From an uncultured Gammaproteobacteria bacterium (GTDB lineage Bacteria; Pseudomonadota; Gammaproteobacteria; SZUA-152), in NCBI GenBank assembly GCA_913009875.1, contig CAJVYS010000001.1, forward strand, positions 20,578-84,577: 64,000 nucleotides of DNA. The letters are read 5' to 3'. Below, one piece after another: positions 11,398 through 61,682 of the stretch. The translations under genes and the position numbers were made by a program. Every line of letters starts with the position of its first letter. Positions within the stretch are counted from its first letter, which is position 1. The notes below the pieces were generated by a model. That model did not search any database. It was not told where the DNA came from and worked only from the letters and a program-made list of their open reading frames with translations.

Positions 11398-11427
11398 GTA
11401 GCCTGGGTTGAGCTTGCGAAACCCGGG
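11398..11427. repeat. REP singlet, family F GTAGCCTGGGTTGAGCTTGCGAAACCCGGG
   Basis: GTAG followed by imperfect hairpin, immediately before a family C REPIN. Confidence 0.55.
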
Positions 11428-11436
11428 AAGCAGCAA

Positions 11437-11610: not shown

Positions 11611-11614
11611 CGAA

Positions 11615-33034: not shown

Positions 33035-33136
33035 AGTGACACCCTCCGGTGATTCTTTTTAGTACCTTAGAAATAATTTTCTGCGCATTTTGTAGAAAAT
33101 TATTTTTTAGTGAAGGTACTTATCCTGTTTATGGGG

Positions 33137-33736: not shown

Positions 33737-33765
33737 TTCTTGCCTCCGATTTCCGTTAGGAACGG

Positions 33766-35031: not shown

Positions 35032-35047
35032 GGCTCTCTCCTAGCGA

Positions 35048-38995: not shown

Positions 38996-39074
38996 TCACC
39001 CCGTACCAATAATATCGATTTATAGATTTTTTCTTCACCAGCCCTGCGGACACCTGCATTTATCGAGACACTCA

Positions 39075-42656: not shown

Positions 42657-42674
42657 TAGCAACATCCAGGCCAT
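42657..42674 (-). promoter_or_regulatory. Putative sigma54 promoter for the bd-like operon
   Basis: Minus strand ATGGCCTGGATGTTGCTA = GG-N10-GC with TTGC. Confidence 0.6.
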
Positions 42675-42995: not shown

Positions 42996-43012
42996 TTGGT
43001 ACGGCTTCTGCT
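42996..43012 (+). promoter_or_regulatory. Putative sigma54 promoter for the HEAT/USP/radical SAM operon
   Basis: TTGGTACGGCTTCTGCT, close to YTGGCACGRNNNTTGCW. Confidence 0.65.
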
Positions 43013-43128
43013 ATCCACAAGCTAACGCGATGTGAAACAGCGTCCTGAAACCGGAACACATGCACTTTCTATCTTCATGGGATATCAACGTGACCAGTAT
43101 TCAAAAACCAACGGATTCAAAACGAGAT

Positions 43129-45597
43129 ATGGCTGACAAACAAGACGCAGTGCAAGCCCTCCGCAGGCTGCTCAGCAAGGGCGATGAACTGGATCGTTGT
43201 TGCGCCTGCCGCTCCCTCGGCGTACTGGGGAGCCGTGATGCCGTACAGGCACTGGTCAAACATCTGCGCGATGACGATATCGATGTGTGTATCGATGCCG
43301 CTGAATCCCTGGGACTGCTGGATGATCCGACCGCCGTCGCACCCTTGATCGAATCCTTGCACAATGACTCCGATGGTGAAATCAGGGTCTCCGTCGTCGA
43401 GGCACTGGGACGCCTGGGTGGAGAACAGGCCACGTCAGCGCTGCTGTCACTGCTGACATCCGTGCCGGAAGATACCGACTGGGACGATGATGATGCCTGG
43501 GACAGCAACTGGGACGTCCAGCGCAAGGCCGTGCAGGCATTGGGTTACCTGCATGTCGCCGAGGCCGTTGCCCCCCTCACCACGCTGCTGGACGAAGAAG
43601 ACGCCCTGGTCGACGAAACCGACGTCCTGCTGGCCCTGGCGCGGATTGGTGATGCCGGTGAAGACATCGTCATCCAACGCCTGCAGAACGGCACGACACG
43701 TGAACGCCGGCGTGCGGCCCATGCCTTGGGCCAACCCTGCTCCCCCACCGGCGCCCGTGCCCTGGGTCGCGCCTTGCGAGATCCGGAACCGGAAGTCCGC
43801 GCCGTCGCCGCCGAAGCGCTCGCCAATAATGGCCAGGGCCGCTACCTGGGCGCCCTGCTCCTGCTGTTGCGTGATCCCGCCGACGAAGTGCGCGAAATCG
43901 CCCTGAAGATGGCCAGCAAGCTCAGTTCACAGGTCAATGCCGAACTCGATGTACAACAGCTGTTGCCCCTGTTGGGCGATCCCAGTGCCAGGGTGCGCGC
44001 CGCCGCGCTGCACGCCTTGCAGGGACACTTGCCCGACCCGCTTGATGCCGAAACCCGGGCACGCCTGGTCGGCTTGCTGAGCGATTCCGAGCCCATGGTT
44101 GCCACCGCCGCCCTCCCTCACGCTCCCCGTCTGGAGGATCCGGACGTCGATGCTATCCTGCTCGGTCTGCTGGCCGATGAACAACGGGATCCCGCCGTTC
44201 GACAGCAGGCCGCACTGGCCCTGGGCAATCGCCCACAAACCTCAGAGGAAGTGCTCACGGTCCTGGACAACGCGATCAATGACCATGAACCTGTGGTGCG
44301 CTGGGCGGCATTACAGGCCCTGATGGCCTGTCATAAAAAACAGCCCGATACGACCACTTCCGATGCAGCCCCCGACACAGCACTTGATACAGCTCTCGAT
44401 ACAGTTTTTGATACAGAGAAAGAGAAGCCCGCTGAAGCAGAAGACGAGCCCGCCGCCCCGCTGGCCCGCATTCTCGCCGCATTGCATGGCGAAGCGGGCA
44501 TGGTCACAACAACGCTTGCATCTGCCGAAAGCAGCAGCGGAGACGATCCAATCCCCGAGTCAACGGACGAGACTTCCGTCGACGTTTCTGACGCCCAAGA
44601 AGAAACCGATGCATCAAGCATCAATGAGACCGCACCGGCATCGACCCTCGACGCCATCATGCTGGCCAATACAGAATACGAGCAACTCGACGAAAAGAAA
44701 AAAACCATCACCACGGATGTACTGCCCGAACTGCCAGCCGAGGAAACCGAAGCCTTCCAGGACTTCTATGACATCCTCGCCCGGCAGCGGCATAACAAGA
44801 AAAAGTTCTACCGTGGCAAGAATATCGATATCGAGGCCGATATCCGCCTGCTCAGCGCCCGCGTCCTCGGCGAGTGCAGCCAGCCCGAGGTGGTCGAGGT
44901 ACTGAAAAAGACCATGCTTGAGGATAACCCCGAACTCCAGCAGGAAGCCGTTGACGCCCTCGCACGCCTGGTGCCGGGTACCCCCGGGTTGACAGAAACA
45001 CTGGGACCACTGAACAGCCTTCTGCATATGGGGGCATCCGAACTACGGGTCGCCAGCGCACGCGCACTGGGCGCCCTCGGCAACCTGCCCTGCCTGCCCA
45101 ATCTGCAGGAAAGCCTGCAGGATGAAAATCCTCTGGTACGCAGTCAATCGGTCATGGCCATAGCGCAGATACTGGAACGACACGCCGGCAAGCTGTCATG
45201 GGAACAGCACGCCGACACGCATACCGCCATCCCCGTCGCCAGCGCACGGGCACAAGAAGAGGCCGATACCATCGAACAGACATTGCACGCCCTGTCCGAA
45301 CATCTGGCCGACAGTGATGTGGGCGTCAGCAAGGCCGCCGCTCTGTCGCTGGCAAAACTAAACCCGCTTCTGCCCGGCGGCAAGACCCGTGATGACATCA
45401 TTGAGCGTCTTATTACCGCCGGCTTTGTCGGCGAGGGACGGCAAGCGCGGGAGATGGGCCAGGCCTTACGCGCCCTTGACCCCGGCATGGCCAGCGACAC
45501 ACTGATACACCACCTGGATACCTTGCCATCGAGTATGGAACGACGATTTGTGCTGGAAATGCTGGAAGAAGTCTTCCGCCCATCACAGGCCGCATAG
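43129..45597 (+). CDS. HEAT / PBS-lyase-like repeat protein
   Basis: Many D....VR..A..ALG.L repeats, acidic low-complexity middle; likely start MADKQD. Confidence 0.85.
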   Translation: MADKQDAVQALRRLLSKGDELDRCCACRSLGVLGSRDAVQALVKHLRDDDIDVCIDAAESLGLLDDPTAVAPLIESLHNDSDGEIRVSVVEALGRLGGEQATSALLSLLTSVPEDTDWDDDDAWDSNWDVQRKAVQALGYLHVAEAVAPLTTLLDEEDALVDETDVLLALARIGDAGEDIVIQRLQNGTTRERRRAAHALGQPCSPTGARALGRALRDPEPEVRAVAAEALANNGQGRYLGALLLLLRDPADEVREIALKMASKLSSQVNAELDVQQLLPLLGDPSARVRAAALHALQGHLPDPLDAETRARLVGLLSDSEPMVATAALPHAPRLEDPDVDAILLGLLADEQRDPAVRQQAALALGNRPQTSEEVLTVLDNAINDHEPVVRWAALQALMACHKKQPDTTTSDAAPDTALDTALDTVFDTEKEKPAEAEDEPAAPLARILAALHGEAGMVTTTLASAESSSGDDPIPESTDETSVDVSDAQEETDASSINETAPASTLDAIMLANTEYEQLDEKKKTITTDVLPELPAEETEAFQDFYDILARQRHNKKKFYRGKNIDIEADIRLLSARVLGECSQPEVVEVLKKTMLEDNPELQQEAVDALARLVPGTPGLTETLGPLNSLLHMGASELRVASARALGALGNLPCLPNLQESLQDENPLVRSQSVMAIAQILERHAGKLSWEQHADTHTAIPVASARAQEEADTIEQTLHALSEHLADSDVGVSKAAALSLAKLNPLLPGGKTRDDIIERLITAGFVGEGRQAREMGQALRALDPGMASDTLIHHLDTLPSSMERRFVLEMLEEVFRPSQAA

Positions 45598-45691: not shown

Positions 45692-46426
45692 ATGAATAAG
45701 GCACTCACGGTATTTACCCTATTTGCAGCAGCCAGTCTTCCGTTAACGGCCGCAGCCTACAAGGTCGTGGATGTTGCCAACGGCGGCACCATCACTGGAA
45801 AAGTGAATTTTTCGGGAACCGACCCGGCGCCAAAAATCTACGCCATCACCAAGGACACCGATGCCTGCGGTACCGGTGATCGTGAAATTGATTTTGTCCG
45901 CGTCACCAATGGCGCCCTCAATGACACCGTGGTCTATCTGAAAAAGGTAAAATCCGGCAAGGATTTTTCGGCCGACATCAATAACCTCGAGGTCAACCAG
46001 AAGAAATGCGGCTTCATTCCCTTCCTGTCGGTGATGAAAAACAAAGACAAATTAGCGGTGCACAACTCAGACCCGGTGCTGCACAATATCCATACCTACG
46101 AACTTATCGGTAAGGCGAGAAAGACCGTCTTCAACATCAGTCAGCCACCGGAACTCACCGTCATCAAGAAGACCGTCAAGCTCAAGCGTGGCGCTGCCAT
46201 GAAGCTGGAGTGTGATGCCCACGACTTCATGCACGGTTATGTCTTCGTGGCCAAAAACCCCTACTTTGCCGTCGTTAAAGAGGACGGCAGCTTCGTCATC
46301 GACAATGTCCCCCCCGGCAACTACAAGATTGCCGCCTGGCACGGTCTCCTGGGCGAACAAAAGGGCAAGGTCACGGTGGATGCCGGCGGCAAGACCTCCA
46401 TCGATTTCACATTCAAGGGCAGATAA
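45692..46426 (+). CDS. Secreted cupredoxin-like protein with carboxypeptidase-regulatory-like domains
   Basis: Sec signal; HNIH ... CDAHDFM fits a type-1 Cu His/Cys/His/Met set. Confidence 0.7.
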   Translation: MNKALTVFTLFAAASLPLTAAAYKVVDVANGGTITGKVNFSGTDPAPKIYAITKDTDACGTGDREIDFVRVTNGALNDTVVYLKKVKSGKDFSADINNLEVNQKKCGFIPFLSVMKNKDKLAVHNSDPVLHNIHTYELIGKARKTVFNISQPPELTVIKKTVKLKRGAAMKLECDAHDFMHGYVFVAKNPYFAVVKEDGSFVIDNVPPGNYKIAAWHGLLGEQKGKVTVDAGGKTSIDFTFKGR

Positions 46427-46546: not shown

Positions 46547-46678
46547 ATGGCAAGCTACCGACTTCCCTTCCTGGGCCGGCGTCAGGCCACTGGTTTTGAC
46601 TATCTGGCACTGGTCGGTTTCTCAATCAACATGGCCGTGGTCGCAGTGATTGTCGCCCACTGGCTATCAAACCCATGA
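46547..46678 (+). CDS. 43-aa single-TM small protein (not in ORF track)
   Basis: MASYRLPFLGRRQATGFDYLALVGFSINMAVVAVIVAHWLSNP; GAGGA upstream. Confidence 0.55.
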   Translation: MASYRLPFLGRRQATGFDYLALVGFSINMAVVAVIVAHWLSNP

Positions 46679-46885: not shown

Positions 46886-49123
46886 ATGAATACGATGAAT
46901 GCACAACTGCAAACCCGCGTTAAACCCAGCACAGAAGAACAAGGGCCACTGCCGCTTCCCGAGTACCACCACATTCTGCTGGCGGTGGACTCATCGGATC
47001 ACTCCAACCGCAGTCTGCAGGATGCCGTGCAACTGGCCGGCCTGTGGAACGCCGACATCACCGGCGCCCACGTCTACGCCGCCAAACTGCACGATGTGCG
47101 TTTCCGCCAAATGGAAGGTGGGCTACCCGAGCAATTCCGCGAAGAAGATGAACTGGAAAGACAGCGCGATGTGCACGATGACCTCATCACCCGCGGGCTG
47201 TCCATTATTACCGACTCTTACCTGGATCATTCCGAACGGCAATGCCAGACGGCAAACCTGACCTTCAAACGCTGCAGCCTGGAAGGCAAGAATTACCGGG
47301 AACTGGCGGCTGAAACCAATAATGGCCAATATGATTTATTGGTTCTGGGCGCACTGGGCTTGGGCGCCGTACAAGGCAGCCGCGTGGGTACCGTGTGTCT
47401 GCGTGTGGTACGTCGCAGCAATATCGACACCCTGGTCATCAAGGAGCCCGGCCGTTCCATCACTGACGGGCCGATCGTGGTGGCCGTTGATGGCTCCAGC
47501 CGGGCCTATGGTGGATTGCTGACGGCATTAGCGCTGGGGGAACAATGGCAGGTGCCGGTCAAGGTCATCGCCGCCTTCGACCCCTACTATCACTACGTTG
47601 CCTTCAATCGCATTGCCGATGTGCTCTCGGAAGAGGCTGGAAAGGTGTTTCGTTTTCAGGAGCAGGAAAAGCTTCACGAGGAAATCATCGACTCGGGTCT
47701 GGCAAAAATTTATCAGGGTCATCTGGAGATTGCCGAGAGCATCGCCCGCGACCACGGCTTCGAGCACGGCTTTGAAACCAAACTTCTGGATGGCAAACCT
47801 CACGACGCCATCGAGAAATACCTCAAAGAGGTGAACCCTTCTCTGCTGGTAATCGGCAAGCTGGGCATCCATGCCGACGCCGATCTCGACATCGGCGGCA
47901 ATACCGAAAACCTGCTCCACAACACCGGCTGCGCGCTGCTAATCAGTCAGCGGGAATTCCAGCCGCGAGTGGAAGTCATTGCCGAATCCACCACCTCCTG
48001 GACCACCCAGGCGGAAGAACGCATGGCCAGGGTACCCGAGTTTGTGCAGGGCATGGCGAAGATGGCTATTCTGCGTTATGCCCAGGAACGCGGTCATACC
48101 GTCATTACCGAAAGCATTGTCGAAGAAGCCACCGCACAGCTATGCCCCGGCCACGCCAAAGAGGCCATGGCGGATATCGTCGCCGCCCACGACGCTGGCG
48201 AGCTGGCGAGAAAACCCATCGAAGAGCTGGTCATGCGCTGGTCGGACGATGCCACGGCGCGCCTGTTGACCATCGACGATTTGCCGCTGCGCGGCAACCT
48301 CAGCATGCGGGCGGAGAAAAAGGCCCGGGTCGAGGGTGCTGAGCGAGTGGAGCTGGTACATATCGCGGCCTTCCTCGATATGCCTGAGCTGGTGAAAGAC
48401 ACCAACCCGCCTCCCGTCGAGGAAACAGTGGCAGCCGAGCCCCGGGCCGACGAGGCACTGAACTGGAACGCCGCCGCCCTTGCCCGCCTGATGCGGGTGC
48501 CCGAAGGCTTCATGCGTGATGCCTGTAAGCAACGGGTCGAAGAATACGCGCACGAAACAGGCGAAACCGACATTACCCTGTCGGTAGCCGAAGCCGGCCT
48601 GCAACGGGCGCGCGAGACGATGATGGCGCAGATGAAGGCCGAACCCGGCAGTGTCCCCGAGGCCGTCGCCAACGCCAAGCCCGGCACCTGCCCGTTCGGC
48701 CACAGCGCCACGGAAGAAACCGCCGAGGACAGCGCCACCCCCTGGAGCGAAGAGGCGAAACAGCGTCTGCAAAAGGTGCCCGAAGGCTTCATGCGCGACC
48801 TCACCCGCCAGCGCATCGAGGCCTATGCGCAGCGCAACGGGATGACGGAAATCACCCCGCAGCTGATCGCCGAGAAATACCGCGAATGGGGCGATGGCTC
48901 GGAAAAACTGCAGCGCCAGCTCGACTGGAGCGACGAGGCCCTGCAGCGCATCGAGCGTATCCCTGACTTCGTGCGCGGCATGGTGGTGAAGGAAGTGGAA
49001 CGTTGCGCCCGCGAGCAGGGCATCGACACGGTCACTCCGGCATCCCTCAGCAAGGCCATGGGCCGCTGGGAGGACATGGGCCAGTTCCATTCCGAGTCCA
49101 ACCCCGATCTCTATAAAGGCTGA
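46886..49123 (+). CDS. Tandem universal stress protein domains fused to five PCP_red-like modules
   Basis: ILLAVDSS..S and IVVAVDGSS USP starts; repeats W...A..R...VP..F.R......E..A...G. Confidence 0.8.
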   Translation: MNTMNAQLQTRVKPSTEEQGPLPLPEYHHILLAVDSSDHSNRSLQDAVQLAGLWNADITGAHVYAAKLHDVRFRQMEGGLPEQFREEDELERQRDVHDDLITRGLSIITDSYLDHSERQCQTANLTFKRCSLEGKNYRELAAETNNGQYDLLVLGALGLGAVQGSRVGTVCLRVVRRSNIDTLVIKEPGRSITDGPIVVAVDGSSRAYGGLLTALALGEQWQVPVKVIAAFDPYYHYVAFNRIADVLSEEAGKVFRFQEQEKLHEEIIDSGLAKIYQGHLEIAESIARDHGFEHGFETKLLDGKPHDAIEKYLKEVNPSLLVIGKLGIHADADLDIGGNTENLLHNTGCALLISQREFQPRVEVIAESTTSWTTQAEERMARVPEFVQGMAKMAILRYAQERGHTVITESIVEEATAQLCPGHAKEAMADIVAAHDAGELARKPIEELVMRWSDDATARLLTIDDLPLRGNLSMRAEKKARVEGAERVELVHIAAFLDMPELVKDTNPPPVEETVAAEPRADEALNWNAAALARLMRVPEGFMRDACKQRVEEYAHETGETDITLSVAEAGLQRARETMMAQMKAEPGSVPEAVANAKPGTCPFGHSATEETAEDSATPWSEEAKQRLQKVPEGFMRDLTRQRIEAYAQRNGMTEITPQLIAEKYREWGDGSEKLQRQLDWSDEALQRIERIPDFVRGMVVKEVERCAREQGIDTVTPASLSKAMGRWEDMGQFHSESNPDLYKG

Positions 49124-49127
49124 CACG

Positions 49128-51149
49128 ATGTCCGACAACGACCTCTTCCTGCTGGCCATCAACCTGACCCGGCGTTGCAATCTGGCCTGTGACCACTGTT
49201 ATCTCGACGCCAACACCCTGCAAAATGGCAGCCCCGACGAACTGAGCCGCGAAGAGGTCTGCCACCTGCTCGATGACATCGCCGCGCGCGGCACCGATGT
49301 GATGGTCGTACTCACCGGCGGCGAACCGCTGATACGCCCCGATCTGGAGCTTCTCATCAACCATGGTAGTCGCCTCGGCCTGTCCATGGTGGTGGGTACC
49401 AATGGCGTCATGCTCACCGACAAACGTGTGCAATCGCTCAAGCTCGCCGGCGCCCTGGGCATGGGTATCAGTGTCGATTCACTCGATCCCCACCAACACG
49501 ATCAATTCCGCGGCCGCAGCGGCGCCTGGGAAAAAACCCTGGCCGGTATCGAGGCCTGCCGCCGTCACGACCTGCCCTTCCAGGTGCACTTCTCCGTCAC
49601 CGAGGCCAACGCCAACGAGGTGCCGGCGATGATCGACTTCGCCCGTGCCAGCGGCGCACGGGTGTTGAACATCTTCTTTCTGGTCTGCACCGGGCGCGGC
49701 GAATCCATGTCCGACATCAGCCCCATCACCTATGAGCGAGTATTGAATCAACTGGTGGCGGCGCAGAGCGAAAACCACGAGCTGATGATCCGCGCCCGTT
49801 GTGCGCCACACTTCAAGCGCATCGCCTATGAACAGGATCCCCAGTCCCCCCTCACCCGGGCCGAGGGCTACGAGGGCGGCGGCTGTCTGGCGGGCATTCA
49901 TTACTGCCGGATTACTCCCGAGGGCGATATCACCGCCTGCCCCTATATTCCCGACAGCGAGGGCAATATCCGCGAAACCCCCTTCTGGCAGACCTGGGAA
50001 GAGTCACCGACCTTCGCCTCGTTGCGTGATCCCTCGTTGAAGGACAAGTGCGGCCAGTGCGAATACCAGAAACTGTGCGGCGGCTGCCGCGCCCGGCCGC
50101 TGGCAATGGGTGGCAACCTCATGGACACCGACCCCTGGTGCAGCTACCTGCCGCAGGGCGGCAAGGTAATCCAACCATTAGTAGAGACCCCCTCGACCAT
50201 CACCTGGTCGCCGGAGGCCGAACAACGCCTGCAGCGCATCCCCTCCTTCCTGCGCAAGATGGTGAAGAAGCGCACCGAGGCCCATGTGCAGGAGTTGGGT
50301 GAACAGCAGGTCACCGTGGCGCACATGTCCACCCTGGCCGCCAAGCGTTTCGGCGATGCCGGACCGCTGGGCATGCCCGATCAGGCCGCCGCCAAATCCC
50401 CCTTCGACGAGGCTAGCAAGGAACTGCCCTGGAGTCAGGAGGCGCGTGAGCGTCTGGCCGGCATGCCGGCCTTTTTGGCCGAGGGCGTGCGCGCCGTGGC
50501 CGAGGACGTGGCCCGCGCCGAGGGTCGTCTGGAGGTCAACATCAAGCTGCTGGACCGGCTGGAGGCCGAGGACCGGCAGGTGCGCCGGTTCGACTGGTCC
50601 AGCGAGGCCGAGGCTGCAGTGGAGGAATGCTTGGCCGACAAGCCCCCCCAGGTGCGCATGTTTGTCGCCCCGGCGCTGGAGGCCGAGGCCGAGCAGATCA
50701 CCAAGAAACGTCGTGCGACCACGGTGGCAGCAGAGGACGTGCAGCAGGCCATGGCCGTCTTCACCGGTGGCGTGGAATGGTCCGATGAGGCCGCCAAACG
50801 GGTCGCCAGTGCCCCTGATTTTGTCCGTGCCGGTATCAAAAAGGCGGCTGAGTTCAACGCCCGCCGGGAAGGTTTGGATGTCATCGGATCCACCGACCTC
50901 ACACGATTCCGCAATCGCGCCATGATGCGCGCGGTGCAGCGCATGAAGGGCTTCGGCATGACCGAACTGAGCTTTGACGCCTTCGATATCGCCAAGGTCA
51001 AGGTGCCGCGCCTGAAGGAAAACCCGGAGGCGGTAAAGCGCTTCAGCAGCATCCGCGAGTTTGTCGATGCACGCGAACACCCCGGAGAACTGCTGGGGCA
51101 GGAGCTGCTGGCGGAGATGAAAGAAAAGTTGAAAGGTAATGTTAAATGA
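49128..51149 (+). CDS. Radical SAM/SPASM protein (AhbC/AhbD/NirJ-like) fused to four PCP_red-like modules
   Basis: CNLACDHC, LTGGEPL; SPASM C..G..YC.ITPEG...C...C..C.Y..LCGGCRAR...DPWC. Confidence 0.85.
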   Translation: MSDNDLFLLAINLTRRCNLACDHCYLDANTLQNGSPDELSREEVCHLLDDIAARGTDVMVVLTGGEPLIRPDLELLINHGSRLGLSMVVGTNGVMLTDKRVQSLKLAGALGMGISVDSLDPHQHDQFRGRSGAWEKTLAGIEACRRHDLPFQVHFSVTEANANEVPAMIDFARASGARVLNIFFLVCTGRGESMSDISPITYERVLNQLVAAQSENHELMIRARCAPHFKRIAYEQDPQSPLTRAEGYEGGGCLAGIHYCRITPEGDITACPYIPDSEGNIRETPFWQTWEESPTFASLRDPSLKDKCGQCEYQKLCGGCRARPLAMGGNLMDTDPWCSYLPQGGKVIQPLVETPSTITWSPEAEQRLQRIPSFLRKMVKKRTEAHVQELGEQQVTVAHMSTLAAKRFGDAGPLGMPDQAAAKSPFDEASKELPWSQEARERLAGMPAFLAEGVRAVAEDVARAEGRLEVNIKLLDRLEAEDRQVRRFDWSSEAEAAVEECLADKPPQVRMFVAPALEAEAEQITKKRRATTVAAEDVQQAMAVFTGGVEWSDEAAKRVASAPDFVRAGIKKAAEFNARREGLDVIGSTDLTRFRNRAMMRAVQRMKGFGMTELSFDAFDIAKVKVPRLKENPEAVKRFSSIREFVDAREHPGELLGQELLAEMKEKLKGNVK

Positions 51150-51256: not shown

Positions 51257-52675
51257 ATGACCGACACAGACGTACTCATCATCGGCGGTGGAATCTCCGG
51301 CCTCGCCACGGCTTGGTGGCTGGCCCAGGCGGGTGTCTCTGTGCAGGTGTGGGAGGCCGACAAGCGCATCGGCGGCAAGATAAAGAGCCGCCAGCAGGAT
51401 GGCTACCTCACCGAGCAGGCCGCCTCGCTATTGATGAATTTTCGCCCGGAAGTCGCGCAACTGGTGCACGCAGCGGGGCTGGACGAGGTCAAGACCCGGC
51501 GCATCTCCCAGGCCCAGGCACGACGCTATCTCCTCCACCGTGGCCAACTACAGGCCTTGCCGATGCGAATCGGCGGCATGTTGACCTCGCCCCTGTGGAG
51601 TCTGCGCGGCAAATTACGCCTGATGCTGGAGCCCTTCATCCCCGCCGGTAGCCACGATGACGAATCCGTCAGCCAGTTCATCCGCCGGCGGCTGGGCAAT
51701 GAAATGCTGGAAAAGGCCATGGAACCCTTTGTCGCCGGCACCCTGTCGGCAGACCCGGATCTGGCCAGCGCCGGCGCCACTCTGCCCCGTCTGACCACAC
51801 TGGAACGCCACTTCGGCTCCATCACCGCCGGTGTGGTGGCGCATAAACTGCTGCGCCGCCGCACCGCTTGCAGCACCGATACCTTTTCCTTCCGCGGTGG
51901 CATGAGCACACTGGCCAATACCCTGGCATGCACACCCGGCCTGCAGATCCTCTCCAACCGTCGCGTGCAGGAAGTGGCGCCCTGCCGGAATGGCTGGCGT
52001 GTCACTGCGGCAACCCCGGACGGAGAACGCAGCCTCACCGCCACACACGTCATCATGGCCACACCGGCACCGGCGGCGGCAAACCTGCTGGCATCGGTGG
52101 ACAAAACCCTGGCATCGCTACTGGATGAAATCCGCTATGCGCCACTGGCGGTGTTACACATGGGGCTGGAACGCGCAGATATCGAACACCCACTGGACGG
52201 CACCGGCTTCCTCACGCCACGATGCGAGCAGCAACCCTTTTCCGGCAATCTGTGGATGAGCAGCCTGTTTGCGGATCGCGCCCCGCAAGACAAGGCCCTG
52301 CTCACCACCTACCTTGGCGGTGCCCGCCAACCCGAGGCCGCCGCCTGGAGTGACGCCCGCCTGGTCGACGAGAGCCTGCGTGCGCTGACACCGCTGCTGG
52401 GACTGAAGGGCAGTCCTGTGATGGTGCGCATCGATCGCCACGCCCAGGCCCTGCCCCTCTACCATGGTGCCCATATGGCGCGGGACCGGAGTATCAGCCA
52501 GCAACTGCGCGCCTTGCCCGGTCTGCATGTCGAAGCCAATTATCGGGGTGGTGTATCCGTACGTGATCGCATTGCCCGTGGCCGCTCATTGGCGCGCCAC
52601 ATCTGCACACAATTGCAGACAAATACGCGGGGCCTGTCAGCGGATACCCTGATTTCACTGCCCGCGAATCGTTAA
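51257..52675 (+). CDS. hemY: FAD-dependent protoporphyrinogen/coproporphyrinogen oxidase (HemY type)
   Basis: IIGGGISGL, EA..RIGG.I, RRRLG.E......PFVAG..S.DP, FRGGM..L, GTGFL.P, LPLYH. Confidence 0.85.
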   Translation: MTDTDVLIIGGGISGLATAWWLAQAGVSVQVWEADKRIGGKIKSRQQDGYLTEQAASLLMNFRPEVAQLVHAAGLDEVKTRRISQAQARRYLLHRGQLQALPMRIGGMLTSPLWSLRGKLRLMLEPFIPAGSHDDESVSQFIRRRLGNEMLEKAMEPFVAGTLSADPDLASAGATLPRLTTLERHFGSITAGVVAHKLLRRRTACSTDTFSFRGGMSTLANTLACTPGLQILSNRRVQEVAPCRNGWRVTAATPDGERSLTATHVIMATPAPAAANLLASVDKTLASLLDEIRYAPLAVLHMGLERADIEHPLDGTGFLTPRCEQQPFSGNLWMSSLFADRAPQDKALLTTYLGGARQPEAAAWSDARLVDESLRALTPLLGLKGSPVMVRIDRHAQALPLYHGAHMARDRSISQQLRALPGLHVEANYRGGVSVRDRIARGRSLARHICTQLQTNTRGLSADTLISLPANR

Positions 52676-52796
52676 TCGTCAAAACCGCCAGCAGGGTATT
52701 GCGGGCGTTGCGGATCTTGCCAATAGCCTCCACTATTGGCGGCAATGCCGGCTGGTACCGGCATCGATCAGAAACCCATTGATGGAGAACCGAAGC

Positions 52797-53132
52797 ATGG
52801 CCATACCGAAACAGGCCAACCTCCCGCAACCCGCCGCACCCTATCTTTTTCTGCGTGTTACCGGGGCGGTATTATTGATCATGCTGCTGATTTCGGTATG
52901 GGCTAGGTGGTACGGTCAGCAGGTCTCCCTGCCGCGTTACTGCGAGGATCCGCAGGGCACAGTGCAACACCTCGAAAAGGTATTGGTGGAAAAACGTCCT
53001 GCCGGCGATGAGGCGCGCCGCCCCTACATTATTGCCGCCAAGATACTCTTTCTTTTACCGCGTCATCCGGAAGAAGGACAGACGGCCTATCTCACTCGCA
53101 TCCGCACCCACATCCAGGATACCTGCCGGTGA
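52797..53132 (+). CDS. Small membrane-anchored hypothetical protein
   Basis: One TM, periplasmic part with two Cys; stop overlaps kinase start (GTGA). Confidence 0.6.
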   Translation: MAIPKQANLPQPAAPYLFLRVTGAVLLIMLLISVWARWYGQQVSLPRYCEDPQGTVQHLEKVLVEKRPAGDEARRPYIIAAKILFLLPRHPEEGQTAYLTRIRTHIQDTCR

Positions 53133-55723
53133 ACACGAGCATTCAGAGTCGTGATCGCCCCCCCGCCCTGAGCGGACGCTTTCTGCTGATCTTTCTACCC
53201 CTGAGCACCCTGCTGGTCGCCATCGGCGTCAGTCATTACTACGCCGAGATGCGGCTGGCACGGGTCAGTCTGGAAAGCAATGAAATACAAAACGTGGCAC
53301 TGGCACAAAAAGGAATTACCAGTGAGATGCGCGCCGTCATCTCCGACCTCACCTTCCTCGCCAAACTCAATGAACTCTGGGGCCTTTTGGATGACCCCAA
53401 CAATAACTCCGCGCGCCAGAACCTGTCGCAGGAATTTCTCTACTTCAGCGAGAAAAAAGGTATCTATGACCAGATCCGTTTTTTGTCGGCGGACGGCATG
53501 GAAATCATCCGCATTAATTACAACCAGGGTCAGCCGCACATCGTTGGGCAAGATCAATTACAAAACAAGGGTGATCGATATTACTTTAAAGAGGCCATGG
53601 CACAAGACATCGGTGGCGTCTATATGTCACCTTTCGACTTGAATGTCGAAGATGGGCAAGTTGAAAACCCCTTTCGGCCGGTGATTCGCTTCGCCACTCC
53701 TCTGTTCAATAGTCAGGGAGAAAAAAAAGGCGTGTTGATGTTCAACTTCCGTGGTGAACGACTGCTGCAGAGTTTTCATCTGGCCGCCCCCAATATCGAT
53801 GATCACCTCAACCTCATTGATACCAAAGGCTACTGGCTCAGCGGCCCCCGCCCGGAAGACGAATGGGGGTTCTTTATGGGACGAAAACGTTCATTTGCTG
53901 AAACCTTTCCCGCTGCCTGGCAACGGATATTGAACGAAAACAGTGGCGGCTTCGTCACGGAAGAAGGCTTGTTCACCTTTTCCACCATCTACCCCATGGT
54001 CTCGGTCATGGAATTTTATGCCAATGCCGGTATGGGGTCGATCTCCTCAATCTTCGATGGCTATCAGGACACCAACCCCCGTTTTTGGAAAACCGTTTCA
54101 CATGTTCCAACCTCAATTCTGAATACCGCTTCGCAAAACTTTTTTCGCCAAAATCTCTTGCTCTATTCACTGGCGGGTCTTTTTTTACTGGCAGGATCCT
54201 TTATCGTTGCCCAGGCAGGCATTCGCAAACAACTCGAAGAGGCGCAAAGAAGCTTTGAACGCCGCTACCGTGACACACTGAAAAACATGCAATTGTCGGC
54301 AGTCACCCTGGATGCGGAGGGTCTTATTACCTTCTGCAATGATTGCCTTCTTAAATTGACAGGTTGGCGGCGAGAAGAAGTTATCGGGAAAAACTGGTTT
54401 GATCTTTTTGTGACACCACAGGATCGGCAACAGGCACATACTTCCTTTGCGGAAATTATCAACGGCAATGCCTCGCCACACACGATTGAAAGCCATATTG
54501 CGACGAAGTCCGGCGAGACATTACTCTTTTCCTGGGCCTCCACTCTCTCTTTCAGCCGTCTTGGAAAAATATCCACACTGACCAGCATTGGCCAGGACAT
54601 TACCCTGCAGAACGAGCATGAAGAACGCCTGCGAAAATTGTCCCGAGCCGTCGAGCAAAGTCGAAACTCGGTGATGATTACCGACATCGACGGTCATATT
54701 GAATATGTCAATCCGCGCTTTAGCGAGGTGACGGGCTACAGCGCCGAAGAAGTGACTGGCAAGACACCGAGACTCTTCAAATCCGGAGAGACCAGCGACA
54801 CGGATTATGACCAACTCTGGAAAACCATCATCCAGGGCAATGAATGGCGTGGTGTGTTCCACAATCGCAAGAAAAACGGTGAGTTCTATTGGGAAGATAC
54901 CCTGATCTCCCCCATACGCAATGAACAGGGTGAAATCACCCATTTTCTCGCCATCAAGGAAGACATCACTGAGCATGTGCGGCTAAAAGAGGAGGTAGAA
55001 GAACGCAACCGGGAACTGGCAAAAAACCAGACACTGACAGCCATGGGACGAATGGCCACCATGATTGCTCATGATCTGCGCAACCCGCTTTCCTCCATCA
55101 AGATGACCTTGCAGATATGGGGAAAGCGTGCCGAGGGGGACTGGGGTGAAGAGGCTGCAGAGATGAAACAAATCTCACTGGATCAGGTACGCTACATGGA
55201 AACCATTCTCGCCGACCTGTTGACCTTTGCTCGCCCCGACGCCCTGAGTCCGGAGTGGCTGGATGTAAAAAAGCTGCTCACCAGTGCCATCAATACCACA
55301 CAAAAGGAGCTACAAGAACGCGGCGCCAGGATCACCGTGGACTACCAGCCACAGCTACCGACGGTACATGGCGATGCCACCAAATTACGGCAGGCATTCA
55401 GTAACCTGATCACAAACGCCCTGGACGCTACCGACGACGTAAACCACGTTCCGCAAATCCGCATCCGCGCCTTAATGGAGGTTAATGACGCGACACCGGC
55501 AATTCGCATTGATATCTGCGACAACGGTGGCGGTATCGAGCCGGGGCTGAATGGCAAGTTGTTTGAGCCATTCTTCACCACTCGCGCCAAGGGCACGGGT
55601 CTGGGCCTGCCCATTGTCAAGCGCATCCTCGACCAGCATCATAGCCAGATCAGCTTGCACGCAAACAAGAGTGGCGGCACCTGTGCCAGTGTCACCTTAC
55701 CGATAGGACCCATTGAGTCATGA
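53129..55723 (+). CDS. Sensor histidine kinase (periplasmic Cache-like, 2 PAS, HisKA, HATPase)
   Basis: Two TM, YDQIRFL..DG.E.IR, PAS repeats, AHDLRNPL, NLITNA, DNGGG, FFTTR.KGTGLGL. Confidence 0.93.
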   Translation: MNTSIQSRDRPPALSGRFLLIFLPLSTLLVAIGVSHYYAEMRLARVSLESNEIQNVALAQKGITSEMRAVISDLTFLAKLNELWGLLDDPNNNSARQNLSQEFLYFSEKKGIYDQIRFLSADGMEIIRINYNQGQPHIVGQDQLQNKGDRYYFKEAMAQDIGGVYMSPFDLNVEDGQVENPFRPVIRFATPLFNSQGEKKGVLMFNFRGERLLQSFHLAAPNIDDHLNLIDTKGYWLSGPRPEDEWGFFMGRKRSFAETFPAAWQRILNENSGGFVTEEGLFTFSTIYPMVSVMEFYANAGMGSISSIFDGYQDTNPRFWKTVSHVPTSILNTASQNFFRQNLLLYSLAGLFLLAGSFIVAQAGIRKQLEEAQRSFERRYRDTLKNMQLSAVTLDAEGLITFCNDCLLKLTGWRREEVIGKNWFDLFVTPQDRQQAHTSFAEIINGNASPHTIESHIATKSGETLLFSWASTLSFSRLGKISTLTSIGQDITLQNEHEERLRKLSRAVEQSRNSVMITDIDGHIEYVNPRFSEVTGYSAEEVTGKTPRLFKSGETSDTDYDQLWKTIIQGNEWRGVFHNRKKNGEFYWEDTLISPIRNEQGEITHFLAIKEDITEHVRLKEEVEERNRELAKNQTLTAMGRMATMIAHDLRNPLSSIKMTLQIWGKRAEGDWGEEAAEMKQISLDQVRYMETILADLLTFARPDALSPEWLDVKKLLTSAINTTQKELQERGARITVDYQPQLPTVHGDATKLRQAFSNLITNALDATDDVNHVPQIRIRALMEVNDATPAIRIDICDNGGGIEPGLNGKLFEPFFTTRAKGTGLGLPIVKRILDQHHSQISLHANKSGGTCASVTLPIGPIES

Positions 55724-58238: not shown

Positions 58239-58244
58239 TCGTCA

Positions 58245-59810: not shown

Positions 59811-59862
59811 TCTAACCTCATAGCTGTCATTTGCACAACATTCACATTGTTGTGATATCAAC
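59806..59862. promoter_or_regulatory. Three NorR-type boxes GT-N7-AC
   Basis: GTCATTCTAAC 59806, GTCATTTGCAC 59826, GTGATATCAAC 59852; first overlaps the norR start codon. Confidence 0.7.
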
Positions 59863-59903
59863 AACAGTAGTGCATAACCCCTTTATAAACAACTAATTAA
59901 TTT

Positions 59904-59921
59904 CTGGCACGAAAAATGATA
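59904..59921 (+). promoter_or_regulatory. Putative sigma54 promoter for nirK operon
   Basis: CTGGCACGAAAAATGATA: perfect -24 element, -12 is GA not GC. Confidence 0.5.
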
Positions 59922-59990
59922 CAGGCAAATAGGGTGAAGTGCGACAGGCGCAAATCACTTATAAACACTATCAATCATAGGAGCAGTTAA

Positions 59991-60932: not shown

Positions 60933-60975
60933 TTAGCCAATGCCACGGATGGCTAACCTTATTGAGGACAGGTCA

Positions 60976-61680: not shown

Positions 61681-61682
61681 CC

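What the first reader, a model, noticed from the sequence alone, without database searches (positions are those of the whole stretch)
46886..51149. Nine PCP_red-like modules spread over a USP fusion and a radical SAM fusion
Seen: the approx. 45-aa motif W...A..R...(V/I)P.F.R......E..A...G...(I/V) occurs five times after two USP domains and four times after the SPASM domain, in genes 4 bp apart. Established: this motif resembles the C-terminal PCP_red domain of BchB/ChlB, a small helical domain in tetrapyrrole-reducing complexes. Inference: repeated docking modules that assemble a USP (nucleotide-sensing)/radical SAM tetrapyrrole-processing complex. I know of no characterised example.
Basis: partly seen in the sequence, partly recalled or inferred. 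Interest (0 to 1): 0.8.

Follow-up and report, generated by a model that had tools for sequence, protein, structure and literature searches.

The report
PCP_red module arrays on haem-synthesis proteins
Two adjacent genes, a stress-protein fusion and an AhbD-like haem-making radical SAM enzyme, each carry a string of small helical modules otherwise known from the chlorophyll enzyme BchB, and this uncharacterised gene pair is conserved next to a protoporphyrinogen-oxidase gene in many sulfur- and iron-oxidising bacteria.

Summary
ORF 46886-49123 is two Usp domains plus five PCP_red modules. ORF 49128-51149 starts 4 nt later and is a radical SAM/SPASM core plus four PCP_red modules and a separate conserved 73-aa C-terminal domain. 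Seven modules reach the Pfam PF08369 cut-off on their own. The two diverged ones (A2, B3) are recovered by profile-profile comparison. The modelled modules superpose on the solved BchB PCP_red domain.

The radical SAM core falls in the AhbD/NirJ2 clade. It carries the published eight-cysteine AhbD SPASM motif exactly, but scores below the NCBIfam equivalog cut-offs. A HemY-type oxidase gene follows.

In 44 related loci, the USP-PCP_red gene lies directly upstream in 41 and HemY downstream in 36. The cassette usually sits beside a cytochrome bd-like/cytochrome c/EB_dh cluster or an arsenite-oxidase-like (iodate-reductase-like) cluster.

Each module position is conserved among orthologues but differs from the other positions, and the linkers are not conserved.

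My best reading is an accessory terminal haem-synthesis cassette whose PCP_red strings act as docking or hand-over modules. The domain assignments are shown. The docking role, the substrate and the role of the USP protein are inferred. I found no paper describing this architecture. I rate it a new variant of a known kind, of moderate to high interest.

The parts
46886..49123 (+). Gene A: tandem-Usp protein with five PCP_red modules (745 aa; alternative start 46895 gives 742 aa)
   Evidence: ORF. Pfam Usp 93.2 bits (2 stretches) and PCP_red 174.6 bits. More than 3000 homologues with the same Pfam pair.
46964..47443 (+). Usp domain 1 (aa 27-186), with G-2x-G-9x-G-T at aa 155-169
   Evidence: Pfam best stretch 27-186. 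Motif found by regex. Weak PDB matches to Rv1636 and an M. smegmatis USP.
47468..47950 (+). Usp domain 2 (approx. aa 195-355); its motif is degenerate (G-2x-G-9x-G-G)
   Evidence: Second Usp stretch. UspE-like match at 277-353. Relaxed regex. The boundaries are approximate.
47990..48148 (+). PCP_red module A1 (aa 369-421)
   Evidence: 53.2 bits alone. 0.82 mean identity among orthologues.
48230..48388 (+). PCP_red module A2 (aa 449-501), diverged; it lacks the P-x-F turn
   Evidence: 18.4 bits alone. hhalign 95.7%, E 9.5e-9 against the canonical modules. 0.59 identity among orthologues.
48455..48613 (+). PCP_red module A3 (aa 524-576)
   Evidence: 44.0 bits. Aligns to ChlB 455-504 of 2xdq_B.
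48734..48892 (+). PCP_red module A4 (aa 617-669)
   Evidence: 50.9 bits.
48917..49075 (+). PCP_red module A5 (aa 678-730)
   Evidence: 54.5 bits. Aligns to Asr4154, 2l09_A.
49128..51149 (+). Gene B: AhbD/NirJ2-clade radical SAM/SPASM enzyme with four PCP_red modules and a C-terminal domain (673 aa)
   Evidence: ORF. Pfam. NCBIfam NirJ2 310.7 and AhbD 296.7 bits, both below the 500 cut-off. More than 2000 homologues.
49158..49640 (+). Radical SAM core (aa 11-171) with CX3CX2C at C17/C21/C24
   Evidence: Pfam Radical_SAM 86.6 bits. Motif. The cysteines are invariant in 50 homologues.
49800..50141 (+). Full SPASM region (aa 225-338) with eight cysteines: C225, C253, C271, C308, C311, C317, C320, C338
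   Evidence: Regex match to CX20-33CX17CX36-37CX2CX5CX2CX17-35C. That motif is reported for the AhbDs of methanogens and sulfate reducers in PMC10452713. All eight cysteines are invariant in 50 homologues.
50196..50354 (+). PCP_red module B1 (aa 357-409)
   Evidence: 58.7 bits. This is the only module kept in the short-tail variants. Matches 2kru_A.
50421..50579 (+). PCP_red module B2 (aa 432-484)
   Evidence: 32.5 bits, exactly at the cut-off. 0.73 identity among orthologues.
50586..50762 (+). PCP_red module B3 (aa 487-545), diverged, with two insertions
   Evidence: 20.8 bits. hhalign 87.8%, E 3.3e-6. Its position is conserved in all orthologues.
50769..50927 (+). PCP_red module B4 (aa 548-600)
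   Evidence: 34.7 bits. 0.80 identity among orthologues.
50928..51146 (+). Conserved helical C-terminal domain (aa 601-673); no family assignment
   Evidence: No Pfam match (protein 10). 0.74 identity among orthologues. Not a PCP_red module. Stand-alone proteins of four modules plus a ~75-aa extension of unverified identity exist.
51257..52675 (+). HemY-type protoporphyrinogen/coproporphyrinogen oxidase (472 aa)
   Evidence: TIGR00562 257.4 bits, above the 97.85 cut-off. PDB matches: 1sez 203 bits, 2ivd 194, 3i6d 155. Directly downstream of gene B in 36 of 44 loci.
46547..46678 (+). Conserved 43-aa hydrophobic ORF between the 244-aa periplasmic gene and gene A
   Evidence: tblastn finds it at the syntenic position in many loci, down to 37-55% identity. 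A 38-aa gene is called at the same place in L004.
43060..45597 (+). HEAT/PBS-lyase-like repeat protein (845 aa), first gene of the plus-strand block
   Evidence: HEAT_2 209.8 bits and HEAT_PBS 60 bits. Weak NblB/CpcE-like hits. Present in 22 of 44 loci.
45692..46426 (+). Predicted secreted 244-aa protein with a CarboxypepD_reg/fn3_3-like C-terminal domain
   Evidence: Present in 22 of 44 loci, including idr-like loci that lack the bd-like cluster.
52779..53132 (+). Conserved 117-aa protein with one hydrophobic helix; overlaps the kinase start by 4 nt
   Evidence: No family hit. Present in 22 of 44 loci, between HemY and the kinase.
53129..57183 (+). PAS sensor histidine kinase and sigma-54-dependent response regulator
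   Evidence: Pfam. ORF and translation. Present in 23 of 44 loci.
36587..42085 (-). Divergent respiratory genes: cytochrome bd subunit-I-like protein (621 aa), cytochrome c (382 aa), and a cytochrome c + EB_dh haem-b protein (802 aa)
   Evidence: Pfam. Within 10 kb of the cassette in 24-25 of 44 loci, spanning Gamma-, Beta- and Alphaproteobacteria and a Dehalococcoidia MAG.

Best explanation
Genes A, B and HemY form a conserved cassette with short gaps or overlaps between the genes. I read it as an accessory terminal branch of haem synthesis.

Shown:
- Gene B is a three-cluster radical SAM/SPASM enzyme of the AhbD/NirJ2 clade.
- HemY is a flavin porphyrinogen oxidase.
- Both A and B carry strings of autonomously folding PCP_red modules (about 50 aa, strand-helix-helix-strand-helix) joined by unconserved linkers.
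- Every module position is conserved among orthologues yet differs from the other positions.

Inferred:
- Gene B oxidatively decarboxylates the two propionates of a coproporphyrin-type tetrapyrrole to vinyl groups without oxygen. The substrate would be either Fe-coproporphyrin III, as for AhbD, or coproporphyrinogen III.
- HemY performs the six-electron ring oxidation.
- The PCP_red strings are position-specific docking or hand-over modules. They would hold the enzymes, and possibly the intermediates, together so that reactive porphyrin(ogen)s are passed on rather than released.
- The catalytically silent tandem-USP protein uses the same kind of modules to join or gate that assembly according to nucleotide status.
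- The cassette supplies haem to the haem-rich respiratory modules encoded beside it, namely the bd-like oxidase with c-type cytochromes and an EB_dh haem-b protein, or the AioAB-like enzyme with two di-haem peroxidases. These share a locus with a sigma-54 two-component system.
For: - Domain identities.
- Fold: in the tail-only AF2 model (pLDDT 82) a module superposes on the solved BchB PCP_red domain 2kru (TM 0.74 on the target, rmsd 1.3 A) and on Asr4154, 2l09.
- AhbD signature: CX3CX2C plus the exact eight-cysteine motif of PMC10452713, invariant in 50 homologues. The closest untailed relatives are 41-44% identical proteins from methanogen and Clostridia MAGs. One of these (Moorellales) passes the NirJ2 equivalog cut-off.
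- Synteny: USP-PCP_red lies upstream in 41 of 44 loci and HemY downstream in 36 of 44. Gaps are mostly -14 to +20 nt. This holds in Gamma-, Beta- and Alphaproteobacteria and, for the USP-rSAM pair, in a Nitrospinota MAG.
- Beads-on-a-string design with specific beads: identity among orthologues is 0.41-0.82 per position against 0.17-0.34 between positions, and 0.15-0.30 in three of the four linkers measured. A1, B2 and B4 are about as conserved as the catalytic cores.
- The tail looks like a separable unit. Stand-alone arrays of 2-6 modules exist, some with four modules plus a ~75-aa C-terminal extension like the tail of gene B in layout. Short-tail forms keep only B1.
- The modules have no conserved Cys, His, Met or Tyr, so they are unlikely to ligate metal or haem iron directly.
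- Neighbourhood: the bd-like cluster is present in 24-25 of 44 loci. The idr-like cluster is present in L027, L033, L034, L037, L042 and the window.
Against: - No interaction, binding or activity was tested.
- Gene B scores 296.7 (AhbD) and 310.7 (NirJ2) bits against cut-offs of 500, so equivalence of function is not established.
- No ferrochelatase or other haem gene recurs in the 44 neighbourhoods. A coproporphyrin-dependent route would therefore need an enzyme encoded elsewhere.
- HemY needs oxygen in the characterised cases (my own knowledge), while AhbD-type enzymes are oxygen-independent. The pairing is therefore not obviously coherent.
- The full-length AF2 model has pTM 0.50 and gives no fixed placement of the tail on the core.
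- Ferrigenium keeps genes B and HemY without gene A upstream.
- These proteobacteria would be expected to have the ordinary protoporphyrin pathway as well (my own knowledge, not tested here), so the need for a second branch is unexplained.
Confidence: 0.45

Rival explanations
1. The PCP_red modules are tetrapyrrole carrier or buffer domains, not protein-docking modules. Each module would bind one porphyrin(ogen) or coproheme. The tail of gene B would hold substrate and product, and the USP protein would be a nucleotide-gated five-site porphyrin or haem buffer or chaperone that delivers the product to apo-cytochromes.
For: - The domain occurs only in tetrapyrrole settings where context is known: BchB/ChlB and here next to AhbD-like and HemY enzymes.
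- The conserved residues are W, F, P and Arg. These could stack on a macrocycle and pair with propionates.
- Stand-alone arrays, and a fusion to a haem-oxygenase-like domain plus a rubredoxin-like domain, exist.
- The number of modules varies (1-4 on gene B, 1-6 on gene A), as expected for capacity rather than for a fixed complex.
Against: - No conserved His, Cys, Met or Tyr is available as an axial ligand.
- A roughly 50-aa three-helix module is small for a porphyrin pocket.
- Strong position-specific conservation fits distinct partners better than nine equivalent ligand sites.
- No binding data exist for 2kru or 2l09 as far as I could find.
Confidence: 0.22
2. The cassette works in the protoporphyrin-dependent order. 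Gene B would be an oxygen-independent coproporphyrinogen III decarboxylase, a functional analogue of HemN drawn from the AhbD clade. HemY would then oxidise protoporphyrinogen IX, and the housekeeping ferrochelatase would finish. This is a rival only about substrate and order; it says nothing about the role of the modules.
For: - The gene order B then HemY matches that pathway order with no missing step.
- No ferrochelatase gene appears in any neighbourhood.
- HemY scores higher against the plant and Myxococcus protoporphyrinogen oxidases (203 and 194 bits) than against the B. subtilis enzyme, which acts on coproporphyrinogen (155 bits) (the substrate assignments are from my own knowledge).
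- The hosts are Proteobacteria, which use the protoporphyrin route (PMC13564367).
Against: - Characterised AhbDs act on Fe-coproporphyrin III (PMC10452713).
- The eight-cysteine motif is exactly that of AhbD.
- The difference in HemY scores is modest and not diagnostic.
Confidence: 0.2
3. The cassette makes or modifies a specialised haem for the neighbouring bd-like oxidase or the EB_dh haem-b subunit, for example a step towards a d-type or otherwise modified haem, rather than ordinary haem b.
For: - Linkage to the bd-like/cytochrome c/EB_dh cluster recurs across classes and in a Dehalococcoidia MAG.
- Gene B is a distinct subfamily below both equivalog cut-offs.
- The wider AhbC/AhbD/NirJ group includes haem d1 enzymes.
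Against: - The cassette also occurs with the idr-like cluster alone (L027, L033, L034, L037) and with neither cluster (Ferrigenium).
- Nothing in the sequences points to hydroxylation or other d-type chemistry.
Confidence: 0.08
4. The repeats are a chance or low-complexity resemblance with no shared origin with PCP_red.
For: Two of the nine modules fall below the Pfam cut-off when scanned alone.
Against: - Whole-protein E-values are 3.5e-52 and 1.5e-31.
- Seven modules pass the cut-off individually.
- The other two are recovered by profile-profile comparison.
- A modelled module superposes on 2kru at 1.3 A.
- The layout is conserved in hundreds of orthologues.
Confidence: 0.01

Closest known systems
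AhbD (haem b synthase; 'NirJ2' in Firmicutes), characterised from Methanosarcina barkeri and Desulfovibrio vulgaris
   Same: - Radical SAM CX3CX2C motif.
- Full SPASM region with the same eight-cysteine spacing.
- Best NCBIfam matches run over the whole core.
- 35-44% identity to archaeal and clostridial untailed relatives.
   Different: - Scores about 60% of the equivalog cut-offs.
- Carries a 320-aa tail of four PCP_red modules plus a C-terminal domain, whereas the untailed relatives found here are 337-347 aa.
- No ahbA, ahbB or ahbC-like neighbours; it is paired with HemY and a USP protein instead.
- Found in Proteobacteria, where the 2026 review does not place AhbD.
C-terminal PCP_red domain of BchB/ChlB (DPOR) and the stand-alone Asr4154 of Nostoc (PDB 2kru, 2l09, 2xdq)
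   Same: - Same Pfam family.
- Same fold in the model.
- Conserved W...A..R...P.F.R...E..A...G pattern.
   Different: - Here there are four or five copies on flexible linkers, not one copy at the end of a nitrogenase-like subunit.
- The match to the BchB models covers only their C-terminal ends, with whole-protein scores of 63-109 bits against cut-offs of 490-912.
- The function of the domain is not established even in DPOR, as far as the papers I could read show.
Coproporphyrin-dependent haem pathway of Gram-positive bacteria, with AhbD replacing ChdC
   Same: A HemY-family oxidase together with an AhbD-type decarboxylase, without the rest of the sirohaem route (PMC13564367).
   Different: - That pathway is described for Gram-positive bacteria and needs a coproporphyrin ferrochelatase. 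None is linked here.
- No PCP_red tails or USP partner are described there.
HemN/HemW family: radical SAM tetrapyrrole enzymes and haem chaperones with a C-terminal helical HemN_C domain (an analogy from my own knowledge; HemW is named in PMC13495026)
   Same: A radical SAM tetrapyrrole protein whose extra C-terminal helical part is thought to handle the tetrapyrrole or its delivery to respiratory enzymes.
   Different: - A different radical SAM subfamily and an unrelated C-terminal domain.
- A single domain, not an array.
- No homology was tested or claimed.
Tandem universal stress proteins (the UspE type; the Rv1636 class of nucleotide-binding USPs)
   Same: - Two Usp domains.
- ATP-type glycine motif in domain 1.
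- Weak matches to Rv1636 and an M. smegmatis USP.
   Different: - Fused to five PCP_red modules.
- Locked in synteny with a haem enzyme.
- The UspE model scores 20 bits against a cut-off of 227.

Membership tests
PCP_red (Pfam PF08369) | Each module scores at or above the gathering threshold (32.5 bits) | tested here: met
   Seven of nine modules pass alone, one of them (B2) exactly at 32.5. A2 and B3 fail alone (18.4 and 20.8 bits) but match the canonical-module profile at 95.7% and 87.8%.
PCP_red (Pfam PF08369) | Fold of the solved domain (2kru, 2l09) | tested here: met
   Top Foldseek hits of the tail model are 2kru (TM 0.74 on the target, rmsd 1.3 A, 52 columns) and 2l09 (TM 0.66, rmsd 1.7 A). 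E-values are weak (0.05-0.16) because the domain is small.
DPOR subunit B (BchB/ChlB; TIGR01278, NF002789) | Nitrogenase-like catalytic body; whole-protein score above the equivalog cut-off | tested here: not met
   104.8 and 109.4 bits against cut-offs of 490 and 509. [quoted passage not shown] No nitrogenase-like domain is present.
AhbD haem b synthase (TIGR04545) / NirJ2 (TIGR04055) | Radical SAM CX3CX2C motif | tested here: met
   C17, C21 and C24, invariant in 50 homologues.
AhbD haem b synthase (TIGR04545) / NirJ2 (TIGR04055) | Full SPASM motif CX20-33CX17CX36-37CX2CX5CX2CX17-35C (PMC10452713) | tested here: met
   Exact match from C225 to C338.
AhbD haem b synthase (TIGR04545) / NirJ2 (TIGR04055) | Whole-protein score above the curated equivalog cut-off (500 bits) | tested here: not met
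   296.7 and 310.7 bits. Of the relatives scanned, the untailed Methanoregulaceae protein also stays below 500 and the Moorellales protein passes NirJ2 at 517.6.
AhbD haem b synthase (TIGR04545) / NirJ2 (TIGR04055) | Genomic association with the sirohaem-dependent route (ahbA/B/C) | tested here: not met
   No such genes recur within 10 kb in 44 loci. Whole genomes were not searched.
AhbD haem b synthase (TIGR04545) / NirJ2 (TIGR04055) | Converts Fe-coproporphyrin III to haem b with SAM | not testable with these tools
   Needs an enzyme assay.
Universal stress protein (PF00582), nucleotide-binding class | Usp domain above the cut-off, plus the G-2x-G-9x-G-[ST] motif | tested here: met
   Usp 93.2 bits against a cut-off of 24, two stretches. 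The motif is at aa 155-169 in domain 1. Domain 2 has G-2x-G-9x-G-G.
HemY-type protoporphyrinogen/coproporphyrinogen oxidase (TIGR00562) | Whole-protein score above the cut-off; FAD amine-oxidase fold | tested here: met
   257.4 bits against a cut-off of 97.85. Amino_oxidase 176.4 bits. Full-length matches to 1sez, 2ivd and 3i6d. Which porphyrinogen it oxidises was not resolved.

The most novel reading that the evidence does not exclude
PCP_red would be a general, so far unrecognised adaptor module of tetrapyrrole metabolism. Arrays of position-specific modules on an AhbD-type synthase and on a nucleotide-sensing USP protein would build a regulated haem assembly line. That line would channel porphyrin intermediates and hand finished haem to particular respiratory complexes (bd-like OR-N-type oxidases, iodate-reductase-like enzymes) in sulfur- and iron-oxidising bacteria. 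The single copy in BchB/ChlB would be the reduced remnant of the same docking function.
Probability: 0.2. Interest if true: 0.75.

Novelty: new variant of a known kind. Interest (0 to 1): 0.62.

Why it matters
**An unstudied domain.** PCP_red has been known only as the unexplained C-terminal piece of BchB/ChlB and as a few structural-genomics domains.

**A large family.** Here it is the repeated building block of two abundant protein families. About 1825 cluster representatives at 50% identity match the module profile. These families are tied to the last steps of haem synthesis in ecologically important chemolithoautotrophs: tubeworm and clam symbionts, Gallionellaceae, Thiothrix and Sedimenticola.

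**If the modules dock or carry tetrapyrroles,** this would give a handle on how reactive porphyrin intermediates are channelled and how haem reaches particular respiratory enzymes. Both questions are poorly understood in bacteria.

**Pathway distribution.** It would also place an AhbD-type enzyme in Proteobacteria. Current reviews assign AhbD to archaea, sulfate reducers and some Gram-positive bacteria.

**Testability.** The system is easy to test, because the modules are small, soluble and already have NMR structures.

Tried and rejected
- **Literature.** Ten full-text searches found no paper on PCP_red outside DPOR, on this fusion, or on the cassette.
- **A recollection that failed.** I remembered Emerson et al. 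2013 as describing a conserved iron-oxidiser cluster with these genes. The paper's text does not bear that out.
- **Role of the domain in DPOR.** The DPOR-related papers I could read do not state a role for the BchB C-terminal domain. Moser 2013 is not held. I recall that it reaches across to the other half of the tetramer, but that remains unverified.
- **A tenth module.** The conserved C-terminal 73 aa are not a PCP_red module (hhalign 10%).
- **Extra haem genes nearby.** Clustering all ORFs of 44 loci found nothing recurrent beyond the window's own gene set. The unlabelled clusters are short ORFs that I take to be spurious frames overlapping real genes, which I did not check.
- **Sigma-54 promoters.** The scan gave 28 matches against 45.9 expected by chance. 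The near-match upstream of gene A has the wrong spacing. Candidates at 42997-43012(+) and 42658-42673(-) are noted but unsupported.
- **Cupredoxin idea for the 244-aa protein.** It has a C-x2-H-x2-M motif, but nothing in the PDB supports the idea by sequence.
- **Full-length AF2 model.** pTM 0.50, with no reliable placement of the tail on the core. Its Foldseek hits only recover generic SPASM enzymes.
- **Pfam scan of all 148 PCP_red representatives at once.** It was replaced by a local domain census and a scan of ten unusual members.

Full report
**What is in the sequence**

Two plus-strand ORFs occupy 46886-49123 (745 aa) and 49128-51149 (673 aa). The first ends with TGA at 49121-49123. Four bases later the second starts, with an AAAGG 9 nt upstream of its ATG. 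This spacing is compatible with translational coupling.

Pfam gives the first protein two Usp domains (93.2 bits) and PCP_red (174.6 bits, E 3.5e-52). It gives the second Radical_SAM (86.6 bits), SPASM (26.6 bits) and PCP_red (108.6 bits, E 1.5e-31).

I located nine W-anchored modules and scanned each alone against PF08369, whose cut-off is 32.5 bits:

| Module | Bits |
|---|---|
| A1 | 53.2 |
| A2 | 18.4 |
| A3 | 44.0 |
| A4 | 50.9 |
| A5 | 54.5 |
| B1 | 58.7 |
| B2 | 32.5 |
| B3 | 20.8 |
| B4 | 34.7 |

The two weak modules are conserved at their positions in the orthologues. Their orthologue profiles match a profile of the seven canonical modules at 95.7% (E 9.5e-9) and 87.8% (E 3.3e-6).

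The last 73 residues of the second protein are highly conserved (0.74 identity among orthologues). They are not a PCP_red module and match no Pfam family.

**Fold**

Single modules align by sequence to ChlB residues 455-504 (2xdq_B), to the NMR structure of the BchB PCP_red domain (2kru_A), and to the stand-alone Nostoc protein Asr4154 (2l09_A).

A tail-only AlphaFold2 model (323 aa, 50-sequence alignment, mean pLDDT 82) shows four strand-helix-helix-strand-helix units followed by a helical C-terminal domain. Its best Foldseek matches in the PDB are 2kru (TM 0.74 on the target, rmsd 1.3 A over 52 columns) and 2l09 (TM 0.66). After these come AAA+ lid domains, which are generic small helical bundles.

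The full-length model has pLDDT 72.9 and pTM 0.50. It gives no dependable placement of the tail relative to the catalytic core. Its PDB matches are ordinary SPASM enzymes such as PqqE, SkfB, SuiB and anSME.

**The catalytic partners**

The radical SAM core matches NCBIfam NirJ2 (310.7 bits) and AhbD haem b synthase (296.7 bits) best. Both matches run over the full length of the models, and both are below the equivalog cut-off of 500.

The core has CX3CX2C at C17/C21/C24. It also has eight further cysteines, C225 through C338, that fit exactly the motif CX20-33CX17CX36-37CX2CX5CX2CX17-35C. That motif is reported for the two-auxiliary-cluster AhbDs of methanogens and sulfate reducers (PMC10452713). 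All of these cysteines are invariant in 50 homologues.

The closest untailed relatives in a scan of one genome per species are 337-347-aa proteins of Methanoregulaceae, Methanospirillum and Moorellales, at 41-44% identity. Methanosarcinales relatives are at about 35%. The Moorellales protein passes the NirJ2 cut-off; the methanogen one scanned does not. I therefore place the enzyme in the AhbD/NirJ2 clade as a distinct subfamily, not as a proven AhbD.

The next gene (51257-52675) passes the protoporphyrinogen oxidase model TIGR00562 (257.4 bits against 97.85). It scores somewhat higher against the tobacco and Myxococcus enzymes (203 and 194 bits) than against the Bacillus subtilis enzyme (155 bits). 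That is a weak lean towards protoporphyrinogen as substrate.

**Distribution and synteny**

Both fusion proteins have thousands of homologues with the same Pfam composition. They come from MAGs and genomes of Gallionella, Ferrigenium, Sideroxyarcus, Sulfuricellaceae, Thiothrix, Candidatus Endoriftia, Sedimenticola, Thiodiazotropha, Acidiferrobacterales and tubeworm symbionts. Many A/B pairs share a contig.

I compared the window's proteins with 81 fetched loci and clustered all ORFs of 44 non-redundant loci that carry the enzyme.

| Neighbour | Loci of 44 |
|---|---|
| USP-PCP_red gene (directly upstream) | 41 |
| HemY (directly downstream) | 36 |
| cytochrome c/EB_dh protein | 25 |
| cytochrome bd-like gene | 24 |
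| cytochrome c | 24 |
| PAS kinase | 23 |
| sigma-54 regulator | 23 |
| HEAT protein | 22 |
| 244-aa periplasmic protein | 22 |
| 117-aa protein | 22 |

Several points qualify these counts:
- Two of the three loci without the USP gene (L010, L031) are cut at a contig end.
- The third is Ferrigenium, where chemotaxis genes lie upstream.
- Some other counts are lower bounds, because several loci are cut by contig ends.
- Intergenic distances are mostly -14 to +20 nt.

An arsenite-oxidase-like large subunit, its Rieske subunit and two di-haem peroxidases accompany the cassette in Halieaceae and Rhodobacteraceae loci that lack the bd-like genes. All but the large subunit also lie next to it in Aestuariirhabdus. 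The window has both sets. No ferrochelatase or other haem-pathway gene recurs.

**Architecture of the module strings**

The layout is conserved. In the 120 closest homologues of each family, my seven-module profile detects three strong modules in 119 of the gene B proteins. B3 mostly falls below the threshold but keeps its position. The same profile detects four or five modules in 118 of the USP proteins.

A short-tail form of the enzyme (about 420 aa, only B1) occurs in Woeseia, Halieaceae, Rhodobacteraceae, Rhizobiaceae, Aestuariirhabdus and a Dehalococcoidia MAG. A Nitrospinota MAG has three modules on the enzyme and one on the USP protein.

| Region | Identity |
|---|---|
| Same module position, among orthologues | 0.41-0.82 |
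| Different module positions | 0.17-0.34 |
| Linkers (three of the four measured) | 0.15-0.30 |
| Catalytic cores | 0.75-0.77 |

A1, B2 and B4 are about as conserved as the cores. This is the signature of old, functionally differentiated beads on flexible string, not of recent repeat expansion. Across the nine modules only W and A are invariant. Arg, Pro, Phe, Glu and Gly are common, and there is no conserved Cys, His, Met or Tyr.

A profile search of 1.84 billion cluster representatives found 1825 proteins with E of 0.001 or less. The best 150 fall into three groups:
- USP fusions.
- AhbD-like fusions.
- Stand-alone arrays of two to six modules. Some of these have four modules plus a C-terminal extension of about 75 aa, the same layout as the tail of gene B. 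I did not compare those extensions with its C-terminal domain.

A few members add rubredoxin-like inserts or a haem-oxygenase-like (Haem_oxygenas_2) domain.

**Interpretation**

Shown:
- The domain identities.
- The AhbD-type cluster motif.
- The HemY assignment.
- The tight and wide synteny.
- The bead-on-string design.

Inferred:
- The cassette is an accessory terminal haem branch.
- Its enzyme decarboxylates propionates of a coproporphyrin-type tetrapyrrole.
- The PCP_red strings are docking or hand-over modules that assemble the enzymes and the USP regulator.
- The product feeds the neighbouring haem-rich respiratory systems.

I prefer docking over direct haem binding for two reasons. No axial-ligand residue is conserved, and each position has its own conserved surface. 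The carrier reading remains a live rival.

The substrate is open. The AhbD motif argues for Fe-coproporphyrin III. The gene order, the missing ferrochelatase, the proteobacterial hosts and the mild PgoX-like lean of HemY argue for coproporphyrinogen III.

What the domain does in BchB/ChlB could not be established from the papers available. My recollection of the Rhodobacter structure is that it crosses to the opposite half of the tetramer near the substrate pocket. I did not verify this.

**Comparison with the literature**

A 2026 review of haem biosynthesis places AhbD in archaea, sulfate reducers and some Gram-positive bacteria with the coproporphyrin pathway. It does not mention fusions of this kind (PMC13564367).

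The neighbouring bd-like protein fits the quinol-site-less OR-N type families described by Murali and colleagues. I base that on its length and its neighbours only, and that work does not mention the cassette.

Full-text searches for PCP_red, PF08369 or combinations of the cassette's components returned nothing relevant.

**Verdict**

The family, the co-occurrence and the tetrapyrrole context are right. Docking and complex formation are untested.
- This is a new variant of known kinds: an AhbD-clade enzyme and a tandem USP, each extended by an array of a domain known from DPOR. It is widespread and uncharacterised.
- Interest is moderate to high, because the system is abundant, sits at an unsolved point (handling and delivery of haem intermediates), and is directly testable with small soluble domains.

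Noticed in passing
window 30323-36178 (-): An arsenite-oxidase-like large subunit (TIGR02693 405 bits against a cut-off of 359), its Rieske small subunit (TIGR02694 113.8 against 95.65) and two di-haem CCP/MauG-type peroxidases form one minus-strand run. From my own knowledge, this four-gene arrangement is that of iodate reductase (idrA, idrB, idrP1, idrP2), not of a plain arsenite oxidase. Related sets accompany the cassette in Halieaceae, Rhodobacteraceae and Aestuariirhabdus loci.
   Followed up: partly
window 36587-42085 (-): This stretch encodes a 621-aa cytochrome bd subunit-I-like protein (67.7 bits), a 382-aa multi-haem cytochrome c, and an 802-aa protein with two cytochrome c domains plus an EB_dh haem-b domain. 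It looks like a quinol-independent bd-like (OR-N-type) oxidase module. It is the most frequent neighbour of the cassette, in 24-25 of 44 loci.
   Followed up: partly
window 46547-46678 (+): A 43-aa ORF with one hydrophobic helix lies in the 460-nt gap before the USP gene. It is conserved at the same position in many loci, down to 37-55% identity. It may be a real small membrane protein. A CydX-like small subunit of the bd-like oxidase is one untested idea.
   Followed up: partly
window 45692-46426 (+): This 244-aa protein has a signal-peptide-like N-terminus and a CarboxypepD_reg/fn3_3-like C-terminal domain. Its N-terminal half has H-x-x-H and C-D-A-H-D-F-M, a blue-copper-like C-x2-H-x2-M spacing. 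No PDB sequence match supports a cupredoxin. It travels with both the bd-like and the idr-like neighbourhoods.
   Followed up: partly
window 52779-53132 (+): A 117-aa protein with one hydrophobic helix and no family match. It overlaps the start of the PAS histidine kinase by 4 nt and is conserved between HemY and the kinase in 22 loci. It may be an accessory of the sensor.
   Followed up: no
loci L023-L037, L042, L043 (e.g. L042:10987-12243): A short-tail form of the AhbD-like enzyme (about 420 aa, a single PCP_red module) occurs in Woeseia, Halieaceae, Rhodobacteraceae, Rhizobiaceae, Aestuariirhabdus and a Dehalococcoidia MAG. It usually still follows a USP-PCP_red gene that carries 2-5 modules.
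   Followed up: partly
proteins P0284, P0248, P0252: Other PCP_red architectures exist. One has three modules plus a rubredoxin-like domain plus a haem-oxygenase-like (Haem_oxygenas_2) domain. Others are USP-PCP_red proteins with rubredoxin-like inserts. Many stand-alone arrays of 2-6 modules also exist.
   Followed up: partly
window 8001-12000: A low-GC stretch (0.37-0.43 against about 0.57 elsewhere) carries a 544-aa DUF4041 + T5orf172/MUG113 protein and a DUF2971 protein. It looks like a foreign insert between housekeeping genes (gyrA at 4390-7032, an IF-2B-family gene at 12980-14026).
   Followed up: no
window 21969-24692 (-): A 907-aa P-type ATPase scores 899 bits on the plasma-membrane proton-efflux (type IIIA) model, above its cut-off of 615.5. 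To my knowledge this type is uncommon in bacteria.
   Followed up: no
window 57255-63124: Downstream lie MoaA (57255-58238) and a GAF + sigma-54 activator on the minus strand (58245-59864). Two multicopper-oxidase-like proteins follow (59991-60932 and 62042-63124, the latter with a NirK-like two-domain layout). MoaA follows the two-component genes in the closest gammaproteobacterial loci. That fits molybdenum-cofactor supply for the AioA-like enzyme.
   Followed up: no
window 42658-42673 (-) and 42997-43012 (+): Two GG-N10-GC sites, each with two mismatches to the sigma-54 consensus, face the divergent operons. Window-wide, however, such matches are fewer than chance expects (28 against 45.9), so they carry no statistical weight.
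   Followed up: partly
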